Position numbers and translations under genes: made by a program. DNA of 64,000 nt from NCBI GenBank assembly GCA_036655355.1, contig JAVVQG010000001.1:280045-344044 (forward strand), written 5' to 3'. Position 1 is the stretch's first letter; every line of letters begins with the position of its first letter. This document shows positions 15,418 through 19,401 of this stretch, one piece after another. Under the pieces are notes generated by a model. That model saw only the letters and a list, made by a program, of their open reading frames with translations, did no database searches and was not told where the DNA came from. Source of the stretch: Bacteroidales bacterium. Its GTDB lineage: Bacteria; Bacteroidota; Bacteroidia; Bacteroidales; JAUNSR01.

Positions 15418-18400
15418 TTACTCTTCAATAATAATACGGAAGCCTACATTGTGAACTTTCTGATAAGGATAATATCCTTTACGAACCACAGCGGAAGCTT
15501 CTTTCGGATGATCCTTCCAAGAACCACCGCGAACCACTTTCCGATCTGCCGATCCTTGTTTCTTCTCATTATAAGGATACGGAGCGAAATCAGAACGAGT
15601 CCATTCCGCAACATTTCCATGCATATCATACAATCCGAACGGATTGGCCTGATAAGATCCTGGAGTTGCCATAATCATATTTCCATCGTCGATGCTCTCC
15701 ATTTTCGGATGATAACTATAATATTTGAACCACGGGTTCTTTTCCCCCATCGGCTGCGGATTCACACCCGACACGGCCATCTTGTTCATCTGCTTGTCAG
15801 ACATGTTTTCGAATTTACTGAAATCAGTATTGATATTGCCATACCAGAAATCCTCATCACTTCCTGCACGACAAGCCCATTCCCATTGAACCTCAGTCGG
15901 TAGTGTTATTTTCAGTCCGGTATGTGCACTTGCTTTCTGACAGAAATCCATCGCATCATTCATACTTACACGAATCACAGGTTGTTCCGGTTTATAGGCG
16001 ATGTAACCTTCGGTCACGTGGTCTTTCCATTGCTGGTCTACAAAACGGCTGTTGTGTTCTGGGAAATAAGCATTAAATTGTTCGTTCGTAATCTCTTTTT
16101 CAGACATCCAGAATGATTTTTTCACTTCTGCCTTATGAGCTGGTGCATAATTGCGGTTATCCTGATTTTTACCCATAACGAATTTACCTGCAGGCACCTT
16201 CACAAAGGTCAGTTTCTTACCTGGAGCCACTTCGATCTCTTTGCGTTCAGGCTGTTCTTCATTCACCACAAACGGGAAGTTCTTCAGCTTCACTTCTTTG
16301 AAACGAGTGGGCGTAAATGACGTTTTTACAGGCTCCGCCTTCGGCTGGCTTTCAAGATGTGCAGCATAGTCTTTCAACTCCTGTTTCCAATCGGCATATA
16401 CTCCGTTGGCGTATTTCTTGTTCAGATTAATACGACGACTGATCTGGTCTCGATCACAATTATTCAACTCGATCGCTTCAAATGTTCCTTTATCCGGTGC
16501 ATTAAAGTCAATCCAATTATACAATTTACGCCACTCGGCATCGGTTAACGCCACCCCGTAATGGCCATCTTTCAACATGCGCACCAACGGACTCACCGAA
16601 GCATGATATTCGTACGGATAAAGAACCTTCATTCCCGCTTCCGGTCCTTGGCGATGAATATACGGATGAAGATCCAGATAACTCAATCCGAATCCGCGTT
16701 CATCTTTTCTTCCCCCGGTATAGTTACGCGATAACTTCGAGCCGTCGTGACAAGAGATACAGTTGCGATCCAGAATCGGTTGGATTTCCAGATCGAAAGT
16801 AAAGGAGCGAACACCGCCTTCTGCCGTTTTCAAAGTCTGAGGTCCTTTCTTGGAAGCCATTACTCGTTTTGGCATCGGGATCTGATTCTGATCCTCATGA
16901 CATCCTACACAAGAAACCGTTTCGCCGGGCTGTCCTGTCAGCCAGCTACGCATCCATTGGATGGCGCGACCTTCAGAATCGAGCGGCTGAAGTGAAATCG
17001 GCGTATTCGCCGGGATCTTGAACATCACAGAACCGTCTTCTTCCACCGGAACTGTTCCCAGCAGTCGTTTTATGTCCCATCCGCTCTGGATACCCTGTGC
17101 TACGTGATCGGACGCGGTACGCAGATAAGCATATTCGTAAGCGAAAACACGCAACTCTTTCACCGTTCCTCTCGGCACATCCGGCAAACCTTCCCCTTCA
17201 TAGATATCCTGAATGAAAACGGTAGCTTCTTTCGAATTGGTATTAATCTTTTCAGGAATAACAGGTGGAAGCGGACGTTTAACTGCCGGGATACCATAGA
17301 TATACCCCTCACCTTCGGACTCTTTAATAAGCGTCAGGTTATCAAACGTATCCACCAGGTAAAGTCCCCAAAGACTATTCGGTGATAATTTGGCCGTAAC
17401 GATATAATAATCCTTATTCAAGGGCTGCGGTTTAAGGAACTGCGGCCACACACCGTCGACCATTTCGTCTTTTACGATCGGAACGATAGGACGTTTACTG
17501 AATGGAAGTTCCTGCAACATACCTTTCTCCTCCTTACGGCTTTTGGCCGGATCAAAAAGAATCAGACGTCCGGAACGCTGCGTTCCGTGGTGTCCGGAAA
17601 TGATACCGATGAATTGAGTCGGATGATCCGGCAAAGGCTGTACATCATAGATCGATGTAGGGAAAACAGAACCGCTGCCATACAAAGAACGCTGTTCCGT
17701 TCCATCCGGATTCATATGCATCACAATACGCGAAAAATAGTGGGTAAGATCGGTATATTCCCAACGCACATACATAATACGTCCGTTATTCATCACCACC
17801 GGTCCCCAGTTCGCGTCCTGATCAAACGTCAGACGACGCATCGAATTATCTTTCGGATCTAAAATACAGAAGTTCCCCACCTGATCGCTTCCACTTACGC
17901 ACGGAACCCCTTGTCCACCCACATTGGATGCCGCGATAATCTTTCCGTTAGGCAAATAAGTAGCGTCAAAATAATCGATATCCTCAGGTGTTCCCTGTGT
18001 AATCTGTTTAAAGCCGCTACCGTCTGTATTCACCTCATAAACCTGCCAATGGTGATCACCCTCCTGAGGCATTGAAAATAACAACCTATCAGCGTCCCAA
18101 TGCAGTTTCAAATCTGGAACAGATGCTGAATTAGTAGGTTTGAAAATCAAACGAGAAGTGATGTCGCCGCGAAGGTTAGAAAGCTCTTCGATTGAAGCAT
18201 TAAAACCTTGTTGGGATGCCGACGTCTGATTCGACCAGTTATTAGGGGGAGTTCCCAAGGCAGGCGGATTAGAATGGCGTGCATTCAGTCCCATCTGATA
18301 ACGTCCCACGATCAGTTTATCCATGTCCAGCAAAGGATTATCAAGCAAAATCTCCTTTTTCAGTTTCAATGCCGTAACGGCATTTTCGATTGTCTGCCGA

Positions 18401-19401
18401 TCGTTTCGGTTCAATCCGTCAAAACCGTCGGAAGCTAACTTCTTTAAGCGAGCCAGACGTTCTTCATTTTTATTCTTATCGAATTTTGAATTGCGAGACA
18501 TATCTTTCATTGCCATCTCAACGGCCGGGATGTTCAGCCATTCAAGTTGCGCCTCAAGTCCCGAGATCGTCATTGCAGCTTCAAATACGCCCAGATACCC
18601 TGCTACTTTCTTCTGCATATCCGCTTCCCGATCGATACGGGCAAGTTCGCTGTTCAGAAAATCAGGTTTCTTTACACGCTTAACTGCGTTTGCGGCATGT
18701 TTTCTTTCAATTGAAGCATCGCCACTCAACATCATCGCTCTGAAATCATTAAAGGCAAACGATTTGAATTTAAGCAACTCCTCTCCGAATTTTTCATTCA
18801 GACGCGTTACCTCGGCATCATCGCTTAACTTCTGAGCGCGAAAAACCACAGATCCTTTTTTAGATGCATCGTCGATACCCACTTCACACTCAAAACGCAC
18901 ATACTTCTTATCTAAAGGAATAACCAACAGTGAATTTCCGTTCGCTGTGATTGTTTCTTTATACAGTTTATCCTTTATCTTAATCTCTTTTATCCACCAT
19001 TGCGGATGAGAGCCGTAAGCCACCTGACCATAACCTCCGGAAAGGAAACGATCTTTCAGCTCTTTCACGAATGTTACTTTGCCCGAAGCATCGATTAAAC
19101 GTGCATTCGCCCAGGTTCCGTAATCTTCGTTATTTCCATCCGGAGTGCCGTAAGTCACCAAAACCAGCTTATCCCACCCTTTGACATCCGTTTTTATCTC
19201 AAAAGGATCCTGACCGGGCAGCATAACCGGCGACTCTGTTACTTTGCCGCTTTTCTGAAGCGTCTGCAAAAGCTGAACTTTCGTTCCGGCCACCGCTTCT
19301 TTCCAGTCATTTGGCAAGGCAGTTTTTTTTGTTGTCTGTTGTGACGTCGCCTCACCTACAGTAAGACCGCACAAAACCGACAATAAAACTATTTTCTTCA
19401 T
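15418..19401 (-). CDS. exported multidomain protein: NPCBM-like module, helical linker, beta-propeller, two CXXCH heme-c sites and a C-terminal FGE/SUMF1-like domain
   Basis: Signal peptide MKKIVLLSVLCGLTVGEATS. An NPCBM-like segment is present (GYGQVAYGSHPQWW...VRFECEVGIDD). A long propeller-like region follows. CVGCH lies at nt 16897-16911 and CISCH at nt 16747-16761, the latter in a Planctomycete-cytochrome-like context PILDRNCISCHD. The C-terminus carries FGE-sulfatase motifs (FVMGKN..., FWMSEKEITNEQF, HGNVAEWT, RGGSW, GFRII). Confidence 0.8.
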   Translation of the reverse strand: MKKIVLLSVLCGLTVGEATSQQTTKKTALPNDWKEAVAGTKVQLLQTLQKSGKVTESPVMLPGQDPFEIKTDVKGWDKLVLVTYGTPDGNNEDYGTWANARLIDASGKVTFVKELKDRFLSGGYGQVAYGSHPQWWIKEIKIKDKLYKETITANGNSLLVIPLDKKYVRFECEVGIDDASKKGSVVFRAQKLSDDAEVTRLNEKFGEELLKFKSFAFNDFRAMMLSGDASIERKHAANAVKRVKKPDFLNSELARIDREADMQKKVAGYLGVFEAAMTISGLEAQLEWLNIPAVEMAMKDMSRNSKFDKNKNEERLARLKKLASDGFDGLNRNDRQTIENAVTALKLKKEILLDNPLLDMDKLIVGRYQMGLNARHSNPPALGTPPNNWSNQTSASQQGFNASIEELSNLRGDITSRLIFKPTNSASVPDLKLHWDADRLLFSMPQEGDHHWQVYEVNTDGSGFKQITQGTPEDIDYFDATYLPNGKIIAASNVGGQGVPCVSGSDQVGNFCILDPKDNSMRRLTFDQDANWGPVVMNNGRIMYVRWEYTDLTHYFSRIVMHMNPDGTEQRSLYGSGSVFPTSIYDVQPLPDHPTQFIGIISGHHGTQRSGRLILFDPAKSRKEEKGMLQELPFSKRPIVPIVKDEMVDGVWPQFLKPQPLNKDYYIVTAKLSPNSLWGLYLVDTFDNLTLIKESEGEGYIYGIPAVKRPLPPVIPEKINTNSKEATVFIQDIYEGEGLPDVPRGTVKELRVFAYEYAYLRTASDHVAQGIQSGWDIKRLLGTVPVEEDGSVMFKIPANTPISLQPLDSEGRAIQWMRSWLTGQPGETVSCVGCHEDQNQIPMPKRVMASKKGPQTLKTAEGGVRSFTFDLEIQPILDRNCISCHDGSKLSRNYTGGRKDERGFGLSYLDLHPYIHRQGPEAGMKVLYPYEYHASVSPLVRMLKDGHYGVALTDAEWRKLYNWIDFNAPDKGTFEAIELNNCDRDQISRRINLNKKYANGVYADWKQELKDYAAHLESQPKAEPVKTSFTPTRFKEVKLKNFPFVVNEEQPERKEIEVAPGKKLTFVKVPAGKFVMGKNQDNRNYAPAHKAEVKKSFWMSEKEITNEQFNAYFPEHNSRFVDQQWKDHVTEGYIAYKPEQPVIRVSMNDAMDFCQKASAHTGLKITLPTEVQWEWACRAGSDEDFWYGNINTDFSKFENMSDKQMNKMAVSGVNPQPMGEKNPWFKYYSYHPKMESIDDGNMIMATPGSYQANPFGLYDMHGNVAEWTRSDFAPYPYNEKKQGSADRKVVRGGSWKDHPKEASAVVRKGYYPYQKVHNVGFRIIIEE

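What the first reader, a model, noticed from the sequence alone, without database searches (positions are those of the whole stretch)
15418..19401. A 1327-aa exported fusion of NPCBM-like module, beta-propeller, two CXXCH heme sites and a C-terminal FGE/SUMF1-like domain
The sequence shows a signal peptide, an NPCBM-like carbohydrate-binding segment and a long propeller region. It has two heme-c attachment motifs, CVGCH (nt 16897-16911) and CISCH (nt 16747-16761). The last ~260 aa form a complete FGE-sulfatase-type domain (HGNVAEWT, RGGSW, GFRII). FGE-fold proteins are O2/Cu-dependent oxidases or C-S bond-forming enzymes such as FGE and EgtB. Covalent linkage to cytochrome c modules implies an electron-transfer chain built into one periplasmic protein. 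The two sulfatases in this window carry Ser, not Cys, at the formylglycine position, so the classical FGE reaction on these neighbours is unlikely. The domain probably has another substrate.
Basis: partly seen in the sequence, partly recalled or inferred. Interest (0 to 1): 0.7.

Follow-up and report, generated by a model that had tools for sequence, protein, structure and literature searches.

The report
Hydrazine-synthase-like heme protein of gut Bacteroidales

Summary
ORF 15418-19401 (minus strand, 1327 aa) has a signal peptide, an NPCBM-like module, a beta-propeller, two CXXCH sites at the stated coordinates and a C-terminal FGE-fold domain.

The interpretation needs revision. The propeller, the 'HZS_alpha' middle domain and the second heme domain together form a full-length homologue of hydrazine synthase alpha (Foldseek 5c2v_A, E=2e-20, 803 columns). 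Both heme motifs are collinear with hemes alphaI and alphaII.

A fused beta-gamma homologue with two more CXXCH lies 6 kb upstream in the same gene array, and a dedicated CcsBA heme-attachment gene lies downstream. About 60 of 80 Bacteroidales loci keep this cluster. The adjacent sulfatase is kept in only 1 of 80.

The FGE-fold domain has no Cu-binding cysteine pair, so it is probably a binding module rather than an oxidase. Residues that define true hydrazine synthase are also absent.

Several features point to a periplasmic four-heme redox module acting on a carbohydrate-derived substrate. N-terminal carbohydrate-binding modules are swapped between family members. Paralogues sit in SusC/SusD loci. 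Some clusters have hybrid two-component (HTCS) regulators, and the cluster carries a lipoprotein sugar-isomerase homologue and a DhaKL/LsrF module. The substrate is unknown and I found no publication on the family.

The parts
15418..19401 (-). Whole ORF, 1327 aa: hydrazine-synthase-alpha-like di-heme protein with an N-terminal NPCBM-like module and a C-terminal FGE-fold module
19345..19401 (-). Signal peptide (aa 1-~19, cleavage probably after GEA)
   Evidence: Sequence inspection. The consensus of orthologues shows the same pattern. Residues 6-23 have low pLDDT.
18832..19245 (-). NPCBM-like beta-sandwich (aa ~53-190)
   Evidence: Pfam NPCBM, 58-62 bits, partial match. AF2 gives a beta-sandwich at pLDDT ~90. 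No significant PDB fold match for the whole N-terminal model.
18322..18819 (-). All-helical domain of unknown family (aa ~195-360)
   Evidence: AF2 model, pLDDT >90. No Pfam or PDB match.
17197..18204 (-). Beta-propeller (aa ~400-735), the most conserved part (motifs GVPCV, RWEYTDLTHYFSR, MNPDGT, SGHHG)
   Evidence: Strand pattern of the AF2 model. Aligned to the propeller of 5c2v_A. Invariant columns.
16894..17169 (-). HZS_alpha middle domain (aa 745-836), ending in heme site 1
   Evidence: Pfam PF18582, 134 bits. Profile match to 5c2v_A residues 503-561.
16897..16911 (-). CVGCH, heme-c site 1, homologous to the heme alphaI motif of hydrazine synthase alpha
   Evidence: invariant
16747..16761 (-). 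CISCH, heme-c site 2, homologous to the heme alphaII motif
   Evidence: invariant
16342..16824 (-). Small helical C-terminal heme domain (aa ~860-1020) with invariant His947 in the GH(Y/H)GV motif
15430..16206 (-). FGE-fold domain (aa 1066-1324) without the Cu-binding Cys pair; conserved insert FPEH(N/D)SRFVDQQWKDH
   Evidence: Pfam PF03781, 147 bits. Foldseek to PvdO and human FGE, TM ~0.7. No Cys after aa 1177.
25267..27051 (-). Partner gene: exported 594-aa fusion homologous to hydrazine synthase beta (propeller) and gamma (di-heme CCP/MauG-like); CNGCH and CASCH
   Evidence: NCBIfam hydrazine_BC, E=3e-27. PDB 5c2v_C E=1e-18 and 5c2v_B E=1e-16. Both CXXCH present in 60/60 orthologues. Present in 59/80 loci.
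24089..25270 (-). Cytoplasmic FkbO/Hyg5 chorismatase-family protein (RidA fold)
   Evidence: Pfam and NCBIfam. PDB 5ag3, E=2e-23. Present in 54/80 loci.
23345..24058 (-). Lipoprotein homologous to D-lyxose/D-mannose isomerase (cupin); metal ligands kept
   Evidence: PDB 7nzo, E=8e-17. Lipobox conserved in orthologues. Present in 65/80 loci.
22985..23302 (-). 105-aa cytoplasmic protein, family unassigned (weak glyoxalase/VOC-like signal)
   Evidence: No Pfam or NCBIfam hit. Profile against PDB gives glyoxalase I, E=0.018. Present in 55/80 loci.
21242..22890 (-). DhaK (Dak1) and DhaL (Dak2) subunits of a dihydroxyacetone-type kinase
   Evidence: Pfam. Present in 56-57/80 loci.
20342..21214 (-). 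LsrF-type class I aldolase/thiolase (3-hydroxy-5-phosphonooxypentane-2,4-dione thiolase equivalog)
   Evidence: NCBIfam NF006081, 463 bits, above the cut-off of 297. Present in 59/80 loci with a median identity of 81%.
19413..20339 (-). Exported or lipoprotein Mal s 1-like beta-propeller
   Evidence: Pfam PF22701. PDB 3no2, E=2e-59. Present in 49/80 loci.
11434..13920 (-). ResB-CcsA fusion (System II cytochrome c heme lyase/exporter)
   Evidence: Pfam and NCBIfam. Present in 56/80 loci, usually directly after the target.
10250..11377 (-). ResA-like thiol-disulfide oxidoreductase (window-specific neighbour)
   Evidence: conserved in only 1/80 loci
27317..28132 (+). Divergent IclR-family regulator
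   Evidence: Pfam. Present in 38/80 loci, and also next to a distant homologue.
13966..15348 (-). Ser-type sulfatase inserted between the target and CcsBA; not part of the conserved cluster
   Evidence: (1/80 loci)

Best explanation
The ORF encodes the large subunit of a periplasmic, four-heme, hydrazine-synthase-like (HZS-like) redox module.

Architecture (shown). After Sec export, the neighbouring CcsBA attaches two c-type hemes to CVGCH and CISCH. The 700-aa core (beta-propeller, 'HZS_alpha' middle domain with heme 1, small helical domain with heme 2) is a full-length homologue of hydrazine synthase alpha. The 594-aa protein encoded 6 kb upstream is a fused homologue of the beta subunit (propeller) and the gamma subunit (di-heme peroxidase/MauG-like).

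Assembly (inferred). The two proteins assemble as in hydrazine synthase.

Not a hydrazine synthase (shown). The residues that make that enzyme special are absent.

FGE-fold domain (inferred from sequence). It lacks the copper-binding cysteines and most likely acts as a binding or docking module, like its nearest relatives PvdO and PorK/GldK. The NPCBM-like N-terminus is one of several interchangeable carbohydrate-binding modules in the family.

Function (inferred). The complex carries out a redox step on a carbohydrate-derived substrate in the periplasm. The step is most simply an oxidation whose electrons leave through the peroxidase-like beta-gamma hemes to peroxide or another periplasmic acceptor. 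A lipoprotein ketol-isomerase homologue and a Mal s 1-like propeller would process the product further. In this subfamily the product would then be imported, phosphorylated by DhaKL and cleaved by an LsrF-type enzyme into triose phosphate plus an acyl or aldehyde fragment. The substrate itself is not identified.
For: Core homology:
- Pfam HZS_alpha, 134 bits.
- Profile of the core against PDB finds only 5c2v_A (E=3e-8), in three collinear segments that include both heme motifs.
- The AF2 model's top Foldseek hit is 5c2v_A (E=1.9e-20, 803 aligned columns, TM 0.54 on the target).

Partner:
- NCBIfam hydrazine_BC, gamma and beta hits.
- PDB 5c2v_C E=1e-18 and 5c2v_B E=1e-16.
- Both CXXCH present in 60/60 orthologues.
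- These are the only two genes in the window with CXXCH.

Cluster conservation:
- tblastn of the window's neighbours on 80 Bacteroidales loci finds beta-gamma in 59, chorismatase-like in 54, isomerase-like in 65, CcsBA in 56, Mal s 1-like in 49 and the DhaK/DhaL/LsrF/105-aa block in 55-59, in two block arrangements.
- The B. caccae short form keeps IclR, beta-gamma, chorismatase-like, a 189-aa gene, the target, CcsBA and Mal s 1-like.
- A distant 46%-identical homologue also has beta-gamma and IclR next to it.

Carbohydrate link:
- 36 of 36 diverse family representatives keep HZS_alpha plus FGE-sulfatase, while N-termini swap between NPCBM, F5/8-type-C (7), LamG and CBM6.
- Parabacteroides paralogues sit in HTCS-SusC-SusD loci.
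- An HTCS gene lies directly upstream of the cluster in 12 Bacteroides loci, and a SusD gene lies upstream in L010.
- The isomerase homologue is a lipoprotein with intact metal ligands.
- An LsrF equivalog scores above its cut-off.

Transcription: RNA contigs of related species cover the whole cluster.
Against: - No biochemical datum exists. Heme binding, alpha/beta-gamma assembly and any activity are inferred.
- No quinol dehydrogenase, small cytochrome or transporter is conserved in the cluster, so the electron path and product uptake are open.
- In the phmmer alignment the beta-gamma protein has Ile where MauG and peroxidases have the inter-heme Trp and hydrazine synthase gamma has His144. 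A classical peroxidase relay is therefore not assured.
- The window itself has no SusC/SusD next to the cluster.
- Two of four distant homologues examined show no beta-gamma gene within 10 kb. A third, L087, has only an unannotated 648-aa neighbour.
- The chorismatase-family gene, and the DAHP-synthase-family gene seen in some loci, fit a shikimate-type small-molecule pathway as well as they fit sugar catabolism.
- The NPCBM match is partial, and the N-terminal model has no significant fold match.
Confidence: 0.55

Rival explanations
1. One reading: the FGE-fold domain is the catalytic centre (an O2/Cu oxidase or a C-S bond-forming enzyme) and the two hemes are a built-in wire that supplies or removes electrons.
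For: The domain is a complete FGE-sulfatase fold (147 bits; TM ~0.7 to FGE). The fusion to the heme core is kept in 36 of 36 diverse representatives. A conserved insert with two His (FPEHxSRFVDQQWKDH) is invariant.
Against: There is no cysteine at the positions of the copper-binding pair, and none at all after aa 1177. There is no DinB-type iron domain as in EgtB, OvoA or SenA. All equivalog scores are far below their cut-offs. The nearest relatives are PvdO and PorK/GldK. The hemes belong to a domain that is itself homologous to a catalytic subunit. The producers are strict gut anaerobes, which argues against O2 chemistry.
Confidence: 0.08
2. Nitrogen-oxide chemistry. The alpha plus beta-gamma pair handles NO, hydroxylamine or related N-species in the periplasm, for detoxification or N-N/N-O bond chemistry, as a functional relative of hydrazine synthase.
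For: Both subunits are homologous to hydrazine synthase. A cytochrome c nitrite reductase gene (NrfA) lies within a few kb in five Parabacteroides loci. The RidA-fold protein in the cluster could deal with reactive imines.
Against: Tyr at +4 after the heme-1 histidine is absent (the sequence is CHEDQN). The gamma Cys165 falls in an insertion missing here. Scores are far below the hydrazine synthase equivalog cut-offs (52.8 vs 800; 95 vs 1250). There is no octaheme HAO/HDH-type gene in the window. Nitrogen chemistry does not explain the swapped carbohydrate-binding modules or the SusC/SusD and HTCS context. A published survey of non-anammox homologues reached the same negative conclusion on key residues (PMC12758564).
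Confidence: 0.12
3. Cofactor maturation. The MauG-like beta-gamma protein oxidatively installs a protein-derived cofactor (quinone or cross-link) in the large subunit, which then works as a quinohemoprotein-type dehydrogenase.
For: The beta-gamma C-terminus hits the MauG, MbnH and His-Xaa-Ser-system MauG-like families. The large subunit has a propeller with many invariant aromatic and His residues. Propeller plus heme c is the layout of quinohemoprotein dehydrogenases (established knowledge).
Against: The best matches of the 594-aa protein are hydrazine synthase beta and gamma, not MauG. The inter-heme Trp used by MauG aligns to Ile.
Confidence: 0.1
4. Biosynthesis. The cytoplasmic genes (chorismatase-family, LsrF/ADH-synthase-like aldolase and, in some loci, a DAHP-synthase-family enzyme) make a shikimate-type small molecule that the periplasmic heme proteins tailor or use.
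For: The chorismatase-family match is solid (PDB 5ag3, E=2e-23). The aldolase also scores on ADH synthase and BagB/FevI models. A DAHP_synth_1 gene sits inside the cluster in 11 Bacteroides loci. A distant homologue is fused to an isochorismatase-like domain and neighbours DAHP synthase and isochorismatase genes.
Against: The B. caccae-type cluster lacks the aldolase/kinase block. IclR and HTCS regulators and SusC/SusD neighbours are typical of catabolism. The aldolase passes the LsrF equivalog cut-off but not the ADH synthase one.
Confidence: 0.1
5. A non-enzymatic scaffold or surface/periplasmic binding protein, by analogy with the FGE-fold ring protein PorK/GldK.
For: The best NCBIfam hit for the C-terminal domain is GldK/PorK (92 bits).
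Against: That score is far below the cut-off of 350. There is no lipobox. Heme motifs are invariant, a dedicated heme lyase is present, and the propeller is extremely conserved, all of which argue for catalysis.
Confidence: 0.05

Closest known systems
Hydrazine synthase of anammox bacteria (Kuenenia stuttgartiensis, PDB 5C2V): alpha, beta and gamma subunits
   Same: The alpha-type layout is the same: propeller, middle heme domain and C-terminal heme domain, with both CXXCH motifs collinear. The partner is homologous to beta (propeller) and gamma (di-heme), fused as in Scalindua. There are four c-type hemes per alpha/beta-gamma unit, and the proteins are exported.
   Different: About 15% identity. 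The heme-1 Tyr ligand position is not conserved and gamma Cys165 is absent. Scores are far below the equivalog cut-offs. The protein has extra N-terminal NPCBM-like and helical domains and a C-terminal FGE-fold domain. The hosts are saccharolytic gut Bacteroidales, with no hydrazine dehydrogenase/HAO gene nearby. The context is sugar metabolism rather than anammox.
Distant co-located alpha and beta-gamma homologues in Planctomycetota and Desulfobacterota (clades I-IV of PMC12758564)
   Same: Non-anammox bacteria carry adjacent alpha-like and fused beta-gamma-like genes that lack the key hydrazine synthase residues. Their function is unknown.
   Different: That survey reports alpha homologues in few taxa and mentions Bacteroidota only for beta-gamma. 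It describes no FGE-fold fusion, no carbohydrate-binding modules and no SusC/SusD context. Here the fusion family has at least 1292 clusters (50% identity) at E<=1e-30. The beta-gamma protein here has only two hemes, whereas clade I has ten.
FGE-fold proteins without FGE activity: PvdO (5HHA), PorK/GldK (9MZU), SUMF2 (1Y4J)
   Same: These are the best sequence matches of the C-terminal domain, and they share the fold and the absence of the catalytic Cys pair.
   Different: Those proteins stand alone or are lipoproteins. None is fused to a heme protein. The conserved HxSR...WKDH insert seems particular to this family.
True formylglycine-generating enzyme (human SUMF1, S. coelicolor and T. curvata FGE)
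   Same: Fold (TM ~0.65-0.69, 20-25% identity) and the HGNVxEW and GFR motifs.
   Different: There is no Cu(I)-binding cysteine pair. There is no Cys-type sulfatase partner, and the linked sulfatase is not conserved. The setting is anaerobic and periplasmic.
Di-heme peroxidase/MauG family and periplasmic cytochrome-linked sugar oxidation (glucoside 3-dehydrogenase type); functional analogy only
   Same: Periplasmic c-type hemes are coupled to oxidation of a substrate. The products would be keto-sugars that need isomerases or hydrolases and then kinase/aldolase steps. PF06439 (3-keto-disaccharide hydrolase) genes lie near two distant homologues.
   Different: There is no flavin or PQQ domain. 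Homology is to hydrazine synthase gamma rather than to canonical peroxidases. No activity has been shown.

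Membership tests
Hydrazine synthase alpha subunit | Propeller + middle heme domain + C-terminal heme domain, whole-length fold | tested here: met
   Foldseek 5c2v_A, E=1.9e-20, 803 columns. Pfam HZS_alpha, 134 bits.
Hydrazine synthase alpha subunit | Two CXXCH motifs at the positions of hemes alphaI and alphaII | tested here: met
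   Collinear profile alignment to 5c2v_A: CSGCH aligns with CVGCH, and CAMCH with CISCH.
Hydrazine synthase alpha subunit | Tyr591 as heme alphaI ligand four residues after the motif His (definition from PMC12758564) | tested here: not met
   The sequence is CVGCHEDQN, and the family consensus is CHEDQNQIP.
Hydrazine synthase alpha subunit | Score at or above the NCBIfam equivalog cut-off (800 bits) | tested here: not met
   52.8 bits
Hydrazine synthase complex | Beta and gamma subunits encoded with alpha | tested here: met
   A fused homologue at 25267-27051, co-located in 59/80 loci.
Hydrazine synthase complex | Gamma Cys165, the third covalent heme link | tested here: not met
   It lies in an insertion of 5c2v_C that has no counterpart in the 594-aa protein.
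Hydrazine synthase complex | Accompanying anammox genes (hydrazine dehydrogenase/HAO-type octaheme proteins) | tested here: not met
   Only two genes in the 64 kb window carry CXXCH. The neighbours are glycan enzymes.
Formylglycine-generating enzyme (FGE/SUMF1) | FGE-sulfatase fold | tested here: met
   Pfam, 147 bits. Foldseek TM ~0.69.
Formylglycine-generating enzyme (FGE/SUMF1) | Two active-site cysteines that bind Cu(I) (C-x4-C before the GFR motif; established knowledge, e.g. PDB 6MUJ, 5NXL) | tested here: not met
   There is no Cys after aa 1177. The region reads RGGSWKDHPKEASAVVRKGYY. The family consensus also lacks Cys.
Formylglycine-generating enzyme (FGE/SUMF1) | Cys-type sulfatase substrate (CxPxR) functionally linked | tested here: not met
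   The window's sulfatases are Ser-type. The adjacent sulfatase is conserved in 1/80 loci.
EgtB/OvoA/SenA sulfoxide or selenoxide synthases | N-terminal DinB-type iron domain plus FGE-like domain; equivalog score | tested here: not met
   53-56 bits against cut-offs of 360-420, and only the FGE-like part matches.
c-type cytochrome | CXXCH motifs, conserved | tested here: met
   Two motifs, invariant across 36 representatives at 32-40% identity. Chance of one motif is 0.0016.
c-type cytochrome | Export signal and a heme-attachment system | tested here: met
   Signal peptide by inspection. ResB-CcsA fusion directly downstream in 56/80 loci.
c-type cytochrome | Covalently bound heme in the protein | not testable with these tools
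   Needs heme staining or mass spectrometry.
PorK/GldK (T9SS ring lipoprotein) | Equivalog score, lipoprotein signal, PorN/GldN partner | tested here: not met
   92 bits against a cut-off of 350. There is no lipobox at a plausible position and no PorN-type neighbour.
NPCBM/NEW2 carbohydrate-binding module | Profile match above the gathering score | tested here: met
   58-62 bits against 23.9, but only the C-terminal third of the model is matched.
NPCBM/NEW2 carbohydrate-binding module | Fold match to solved NPCBM or other CBM structures; carbohydrate binding | tested here: inconclusive
   The AF2 model shows a beta-sandwich, but the two-domain model gave no PDB hit with E<=0.001. Binding is not testable here.
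Polysaccharide utilization locus (PUL) component | Adjacent SusC/SusD pair with a PUL-type regulator | tested here: inconclusive
   Not present at the window's cluster. Met for paralogues in five Parabacteroides loci (HTCS-SusC-SusD-paralogue). HTCS or SusD genes lie next to the cluster in some Bacteroides loci.

The most novel reading that the evidence does not exclude
The family (hydrazine-synthase-alpha-like di-heme core plus FGE-fold domain plus interchangeable carbohydrate-binding modules, working with a beta-gamma di-heme partner) would be a previously unrecognised class of periplasmic, heme-c-dependent redox enzymes for glycan breakdown in anaerobic Bacteroidota. That would make it an 'auxiliary activity' unrelated to any known carbohydrate-active enzyme family. 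It would also be the first physiological role for the non-anammox relatives of hydrazine synthase.
Probability: 0.3. Interest if true: 0.9.

Novelty: new variant of a known kind. Interest (0 to 1): 0.66.

Why it matters
Hydrazine synthase was long considered unique to anammox bacteria. Its few reported distant homologues have no known function. This work shows three things:
- Common human-gut Bacteroides and Parabacteroides species carry a matched alpha/beta-gamma pair with its own heme-attachment gene, in a cluster of 7 to 11 conserved genes.
- The alpha-FGE fusion is a very large family, with more than a thousand clusters at 50% identity.
- The family swaps carbohydrate-binding modules and appears in SusC/SusD loci.

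If the glycan-redox reading holds, it adds a heme-based oxidative step to anaerobic polysaccharide use in the gut. It would also give a tractable, culturable system (B. caccae, B. intestinalis, P. goldsteinii) for finding out what hydrazine-synthase-like proteins did before anammox. In addition, it corrects the database names in use ('SUMF1/EgtB/PvdO family nonheme iron enzyme', 'formylglycine-generating enzyme required for sulfatase activity'), which are misleading for these proteins.

Tried and rejected
- Sulfatase link. Rejected: the adjacent sulfatase is conserved in 1 of 80 loci. Other loci carry a DAHP-synthase-family gene or nothing at that position.
- True FGE or EgtB function. Rejected on the missing Cys pair and low equivalog scores.
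- True hydrazine synthase. Rejected on key residues and context.
- Literature. Six searches (hydrazine synthase with Bacteroides or formylglycine, HZS_alpha, LsrF with Bacteroides, hydrazine synthase with PUL, c-type cytochrome with FGE, BACCAC locus tags recalled from memory) found no paper on this family. Only the anammox-evolution survey PMC12758564 was relevant.
- Fold search of the N-terminal 360 aa. No significant PDB match, so the helical domain stays unassigned.
- The 105-aa protein. My by-eye VOC/glyoxalase guess got only weak support (E=0.018).
- Expression. The window's organism appears only in DNA metagenomes. RNA contigs of species related to B. intestinalis show low-level coverage of the whole cluster but give no information on conditions.
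I could not measure the heme-site to FGE-domain distance or identify distal ligands.
- The 524-aa PUL neighbour of the paralogues has no Pfam or PDB match. I considered a pectate-lyase-like beta-helix from its N-terminal motif, but only by eye.

Full report
**1. The observation**

The window holds a 1327-codon ORF on the minus strand at 15418-19401. Pfam places three domains above their curated cut-offs:
- NPCBM, 58 bits. The match is partial: aa 53-102 against the last third of the model.
- HZS_alpha (the middle domain of hydrazine synthase alpha), aa 745-836, 134 bits.
- FGE-sulfatase, aa 1066-1324, 147 bits, nearly the full model.

Only 0.16% of shuffles of this protein contain even one CXXCH. 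Both motifs are invariant in alignments of 21 and 40 homologues and of 36 distant homologues at 32-40% identity. The N-terminus is a typical signal peptide by inspection. Both sulfatases in the window are Ser-type.

**2. What the middle of the protein is**

A profile of aa 345-1050 searched against all PDB sequences finds only hydrazine synthase alpha (5c2v_A, E=3e-8). The match has three collinear pieces: one in the propeller, one ending in the heme alphaI motif, and one covering the heme alphaII motif.

An AlphaFold2 model of aa 345-1327 (40 sequences, pLDDT 76.9, pTM 0.74) has 5c2v_A as its best Foldseek match in the PDB. That match has E=1.9e-20, 803 aligned columns and a TM score of 0.54 on the target. 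The 'propeller region' and the 'two cytochrome sites' are therefore one evolutionary unit: a full-length homologue of the alpha subunit of hydrazine synthase.

It is not that enzyme:
- The NCBIfam equivalog score is 52.8 against a cut-off of 800.
- The tyrosine that ligates heme alphaI four residues after the motif histidine is absent (the sequence is CHEDQN).

The defining residues are taken from PMC12758564. That survey reports the same loss in other non-anammox homologues.

**3. The partner and the cluster**

The 594-aa ORF at 25267-27051, on the same strand, is exported and has two CXXCH.
- It matches the NCBIfam models for the beta-gamma fusion (E=3e-27), the gamma subunit and the beta subunit of hydrazine synthase.
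- It matches PDB chains 5c2v_C (E=1e-18) and 5c2v_B (E=1e-16).
- Its heme motifs are present in 60 of 60 orthologues.
- The cysteine that makes the third covalent heme link in true gamma lies in an insertion that is missing here.

These two genes are the only CXXCH-bearing genes in the 64 kb window. Together they give four hemes, as in one alpha-beta-gamma unit of hydrazine synthase.

Twelve same-strand genes run from 27051 to 10250 with gaps of 94 nt or less:

| Coordinates | Product |
|---|---|
| 25267-27051 | beta-gamma homologue |
| 24089-25270 | FkbO/Hyg5 chorismatase-family protein |
| 23345-24058 | lipoprotein homologous to D-lyxose/D-mannose isomerase |
| 22985-23302 | 105-aa protein, family unassigned |
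| 21883-22890 | DhaK |
| 21242-21904 | DhaL |
| 20342-21214 | LsrF equivalog (463 bits, cut-off 297) |
| 19413-20339 | Mal s 1-like propeller |
| 15418-19401 | the target |
| 13966-15348 | sulfatase |
| 11434-13920 | ResB-CcsA fusion |
| 10250-11377 | ResA-like thioredoxin |

An IclR-family regulator gene lies divergent at 27317-28132.

**4. Conservation**

A scan of one genome per species found relatives in 445 stretches. The 80 best are all full-length genes in Bacteroidales and a few Marinilabiliales. They include B. intestinalis, B. stercorirosoris, B. nordii, B. clarus, B. fluxus, P. goldsteinii (two copies), Massilibacteroides and Dysgonomonas.

tblastn of the window's neighbours on these loci gives these counts out of 80:

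| Gene | Loci |
|---|---|
| beta-gamma | 59 |
| chorismatase-like | 54 |
| isomerase-like | 65 |
| 105-aa protein | 55 |
| DhaK | 56 |
| DhaL | 57 |
| LsrF-like | 59 |
| Mal s 1-like | 49 |
| CcsBA | 56 |
| IclR | 38 |
| sulfatase | 1 |
| ResA-like | 1 |

Many of the loci that lack a gene are cut by contig ends.

Two arrangements exist. They differ by moving the block of 105-aa protein, DhaK, DhaL, LsrF-like and Mal s 1-like as a unit. A shorter form in B. caccae (1137 aa, no NPCBM) keeps IclR, beta-gamma, chorismatase-like, a 189-aa gene, the target, CcsBA and Mal s 1-like, and lacks the kinase/aldolase block. No transporter or quinol dehydrogenase is conserved.

**5. The FGE-fold domain**

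Its fold is confirmed, with TM about 0.7 to PvdO and human FGE. True FGEs bind Cu(I) with two cysteines spaced C-x4-C just before the GFR motif (established knowledge). Here that stretch reads RGGSWKDHPKEASAVVRKGYYPYQKVHNVGFR, and there is no cysteine after residue 1177. The family consensus has none either.

The best family and structure matches are the non-FGE members GldK/PorK and PvdO. EgtB, OvoA and SenA models match only over the FGE-like part and far below their cut-offs. The domain is nevertheless inseparable from the heme core: 36 of 36 diverse representatives have both. It also carries an invariant insert, FPEH(N/D)SRFVDQQWKDH. I read it as a binding or docking module. This is an inference.

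**6. Family size and the carbohydrate link**

An exhaustive HMMER scan of 1.84 billion cluster representatives with the core gives 5396 hits at E<=1e-3 and 1292 at E<=1e-30. In 36 sampled representatives the N-terminal module varies: NPCBM (2), F5/8-type-C, a galactose-binding type (7), LamG (1) and CBM6 (1). The core and the FGE-fold domain stay fixed. Swapping of carbohydrate-binding modules is typical of carbohydrate-active enzymes.

Other links to carbohydrates:
- Paralogues in five Parabacteroides loci sit in HTCS-SusC-SusD-paralogue-524-aa arrays.
- In 12 Bacteroides loci an HTCS gene ends just upstream of the beta-gamma gene. In L010 a SusD gene related to that PUL lies upstream.
- The isomerase homologue keeps its metal ligands and has a conserved lipoprotein signal, so it should work outside the cytoplasm.
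- A distant homologue (46% identity) again has beta-gamma and IclR genes beside it. Others lie near CE15 esterases, a sulfatase, or PF06439 (3-keto-disaccharide hydrolase) genes.

**7. Most likely mechanism**

Shown:
- an exported protein with two conserved heme-c sites in a hydrazine-synthase-alpha fold;
- a co-encoded beta-gamma homologue with two more heme sites;
- a dedicated heme-attachment gene;
- a conserved cluster with periplasmic and cytoplasmic sugar-type enzymes.

Inferred:
- the two proteins assemble as in hydrazine synthase;
- they catalyse a redox step on a carbohydrate-derived substrate, targeted by the N-terminal module and perhaps the FGE-fold domain;
- electrons pass through the peroxidase-like beta-gamma hemes to peroxide or another periplasmic acceptor;
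- the product is handled by the isomerase homologue and the Mal s 1-like propeller;
- in this subfamily it is then phosphorylated by DhaKL and split by the LsrF-type enzyme.

I put about 0.85 on the architectural part and about 0.4 on the carbohydrate-redox function, which gives 0.55 for the statement as a whole. The rival readings, with their evidence, are an FGE-centred oxidase, nitrogen-oxide chemistry, MauG-type cofactor maturation, biosynthesis of a shikimate-type compound, and a scaffold.

A recurring and unexplained theme is enzymes that hydrolyse or make enolpyruvyl compounds. The cluster has a chorismatase-family gene. Some loci have a DAHP-synthase-family gene. One distant homologue has an isochorismatase-like domain.

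**8. Comparison with what is known, and novelty**

Six full-text searches found no paper on this fusion or cluster. The 2025 survey of hydrazine synthase homologues describes co-located alpha and beta-gamma homologues in a few Planctomycetota and Desulfobacterota. It mentions Bacteroidota only for beta-gamma, and it notes that no homologue has a confirmed function.

Sources name these proteins 'SUMF1/EgtB/PvdO family nonheme iron enzyme' or 'formylglycine-generating enzyme required for sulfatase activity'. The sequence does not support those names.

I rate this a new variant of a known kind: a hydrazine-synthase-like heme module, recombined with FGE-fold and carbohydrate-binding modules, in a sugar-metabolism setting in gut bacteria.

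**9. Limits**

- No experiment was possible.
- The signal peptide was judged by eye.
- The RNA evidence is only low-depth contigs from related species.
- The taxonomy of the distant family members was not resolved.

Noticed in passing
window 20342-23302 (-): An LsrF equivalog (463 bits, above its cut-off), DhaK, DhaL and a 105-aa unknown protein move as one block between two cluster arrangements. The block is missing from the B. caccae-type cluster. It looks like an LsrK/G/F-style route for a hydroxy-diketone sugar, but with a Dha-type kinase.
   Followed up: partly
window 23345-24058 (-); orthologues in L027, L031, L043, L052: The D-lyxose/D-mannose isomerase homologue carries a lipoprotein signal. 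In many orthologues a cysteine-rich linker (e.g. CCAAAGKGQCTEQCGSDCENEC) follows the lipobox. A ketol-isomerase outside the cytoplasm is unusual.
   Followed up: partly
L005 14224-14967, L011 14100-14837 (and 9 more loci); L087: In Bacteroides loci a 245-aa DAHP-synthase-family gene occupies the slot between the target and CcsBA, where the window has a sulfatase. A distant homologue (P0343) is fused to an isochorismatase-like domain and has DAHP synthase and isochorismatase genes nearby. Together with the chorismatase-family gene at 24089-25270, this is a recurring enolpyruvyl/vinyl-ether theme that I cannot explain.
   Followed up: partly
L017 913-15554 (also L008, L012, L014, L024): A Parabacteroides locus reads HTCS-SusC-SusD-paralogue-524-aa protein and contains no recognisable glycoside hydrolase. 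The 524-aa protein has no Pfam or PDB match. A cytochrome c nitrite reductase gene (NrfA) lies about 1 kb further on.
   Followed up: partly
window 19413-20339 (-): The Mal s 1-like propeller is a close homologue (E=2e-59) of PDB 3no2, deposited as 'uncharacterized protein'. A solved structure of a cluster member therefore already exists without a function.
   Followed up: no
window 25267-27051 (-): Besides the two CXXCH, two further cysteines (C398 and C433) are conserved in at least 95% of 60 beta-gamma orthologues. They could form a disulfide or an extra heme link.
   Followed up: no
window 46001-50000: GC content drops to 0.31-0.33 against about 0.45 elsewhere. The stretch holds a DUF5128 six-bladed propeller gene (47289-48524). 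It may be foreign DNA.
   Followed up: no
They would need an anaerobic radical-SAM maturase, which I did not look for.
   Followed up: partly
window 35064-37517 (-): A 542-aa polytopic membrane protein without any Pfam match sits next to an ABC-transporter ATPase gene. This may be an uncharacterised ABC permease pair.
   Followed up: no
L015 13982-14082: A short sequence just after the target gene in B. intestinalis matches many different, highly expressed RNA contigs of another organism. It is probably a small dispersed repeat.
   Followed up: no
window 50669-51667 (-): A GGGtGRT-family protein (643 bits), a conserved family of unknown function.
   Followed up: no
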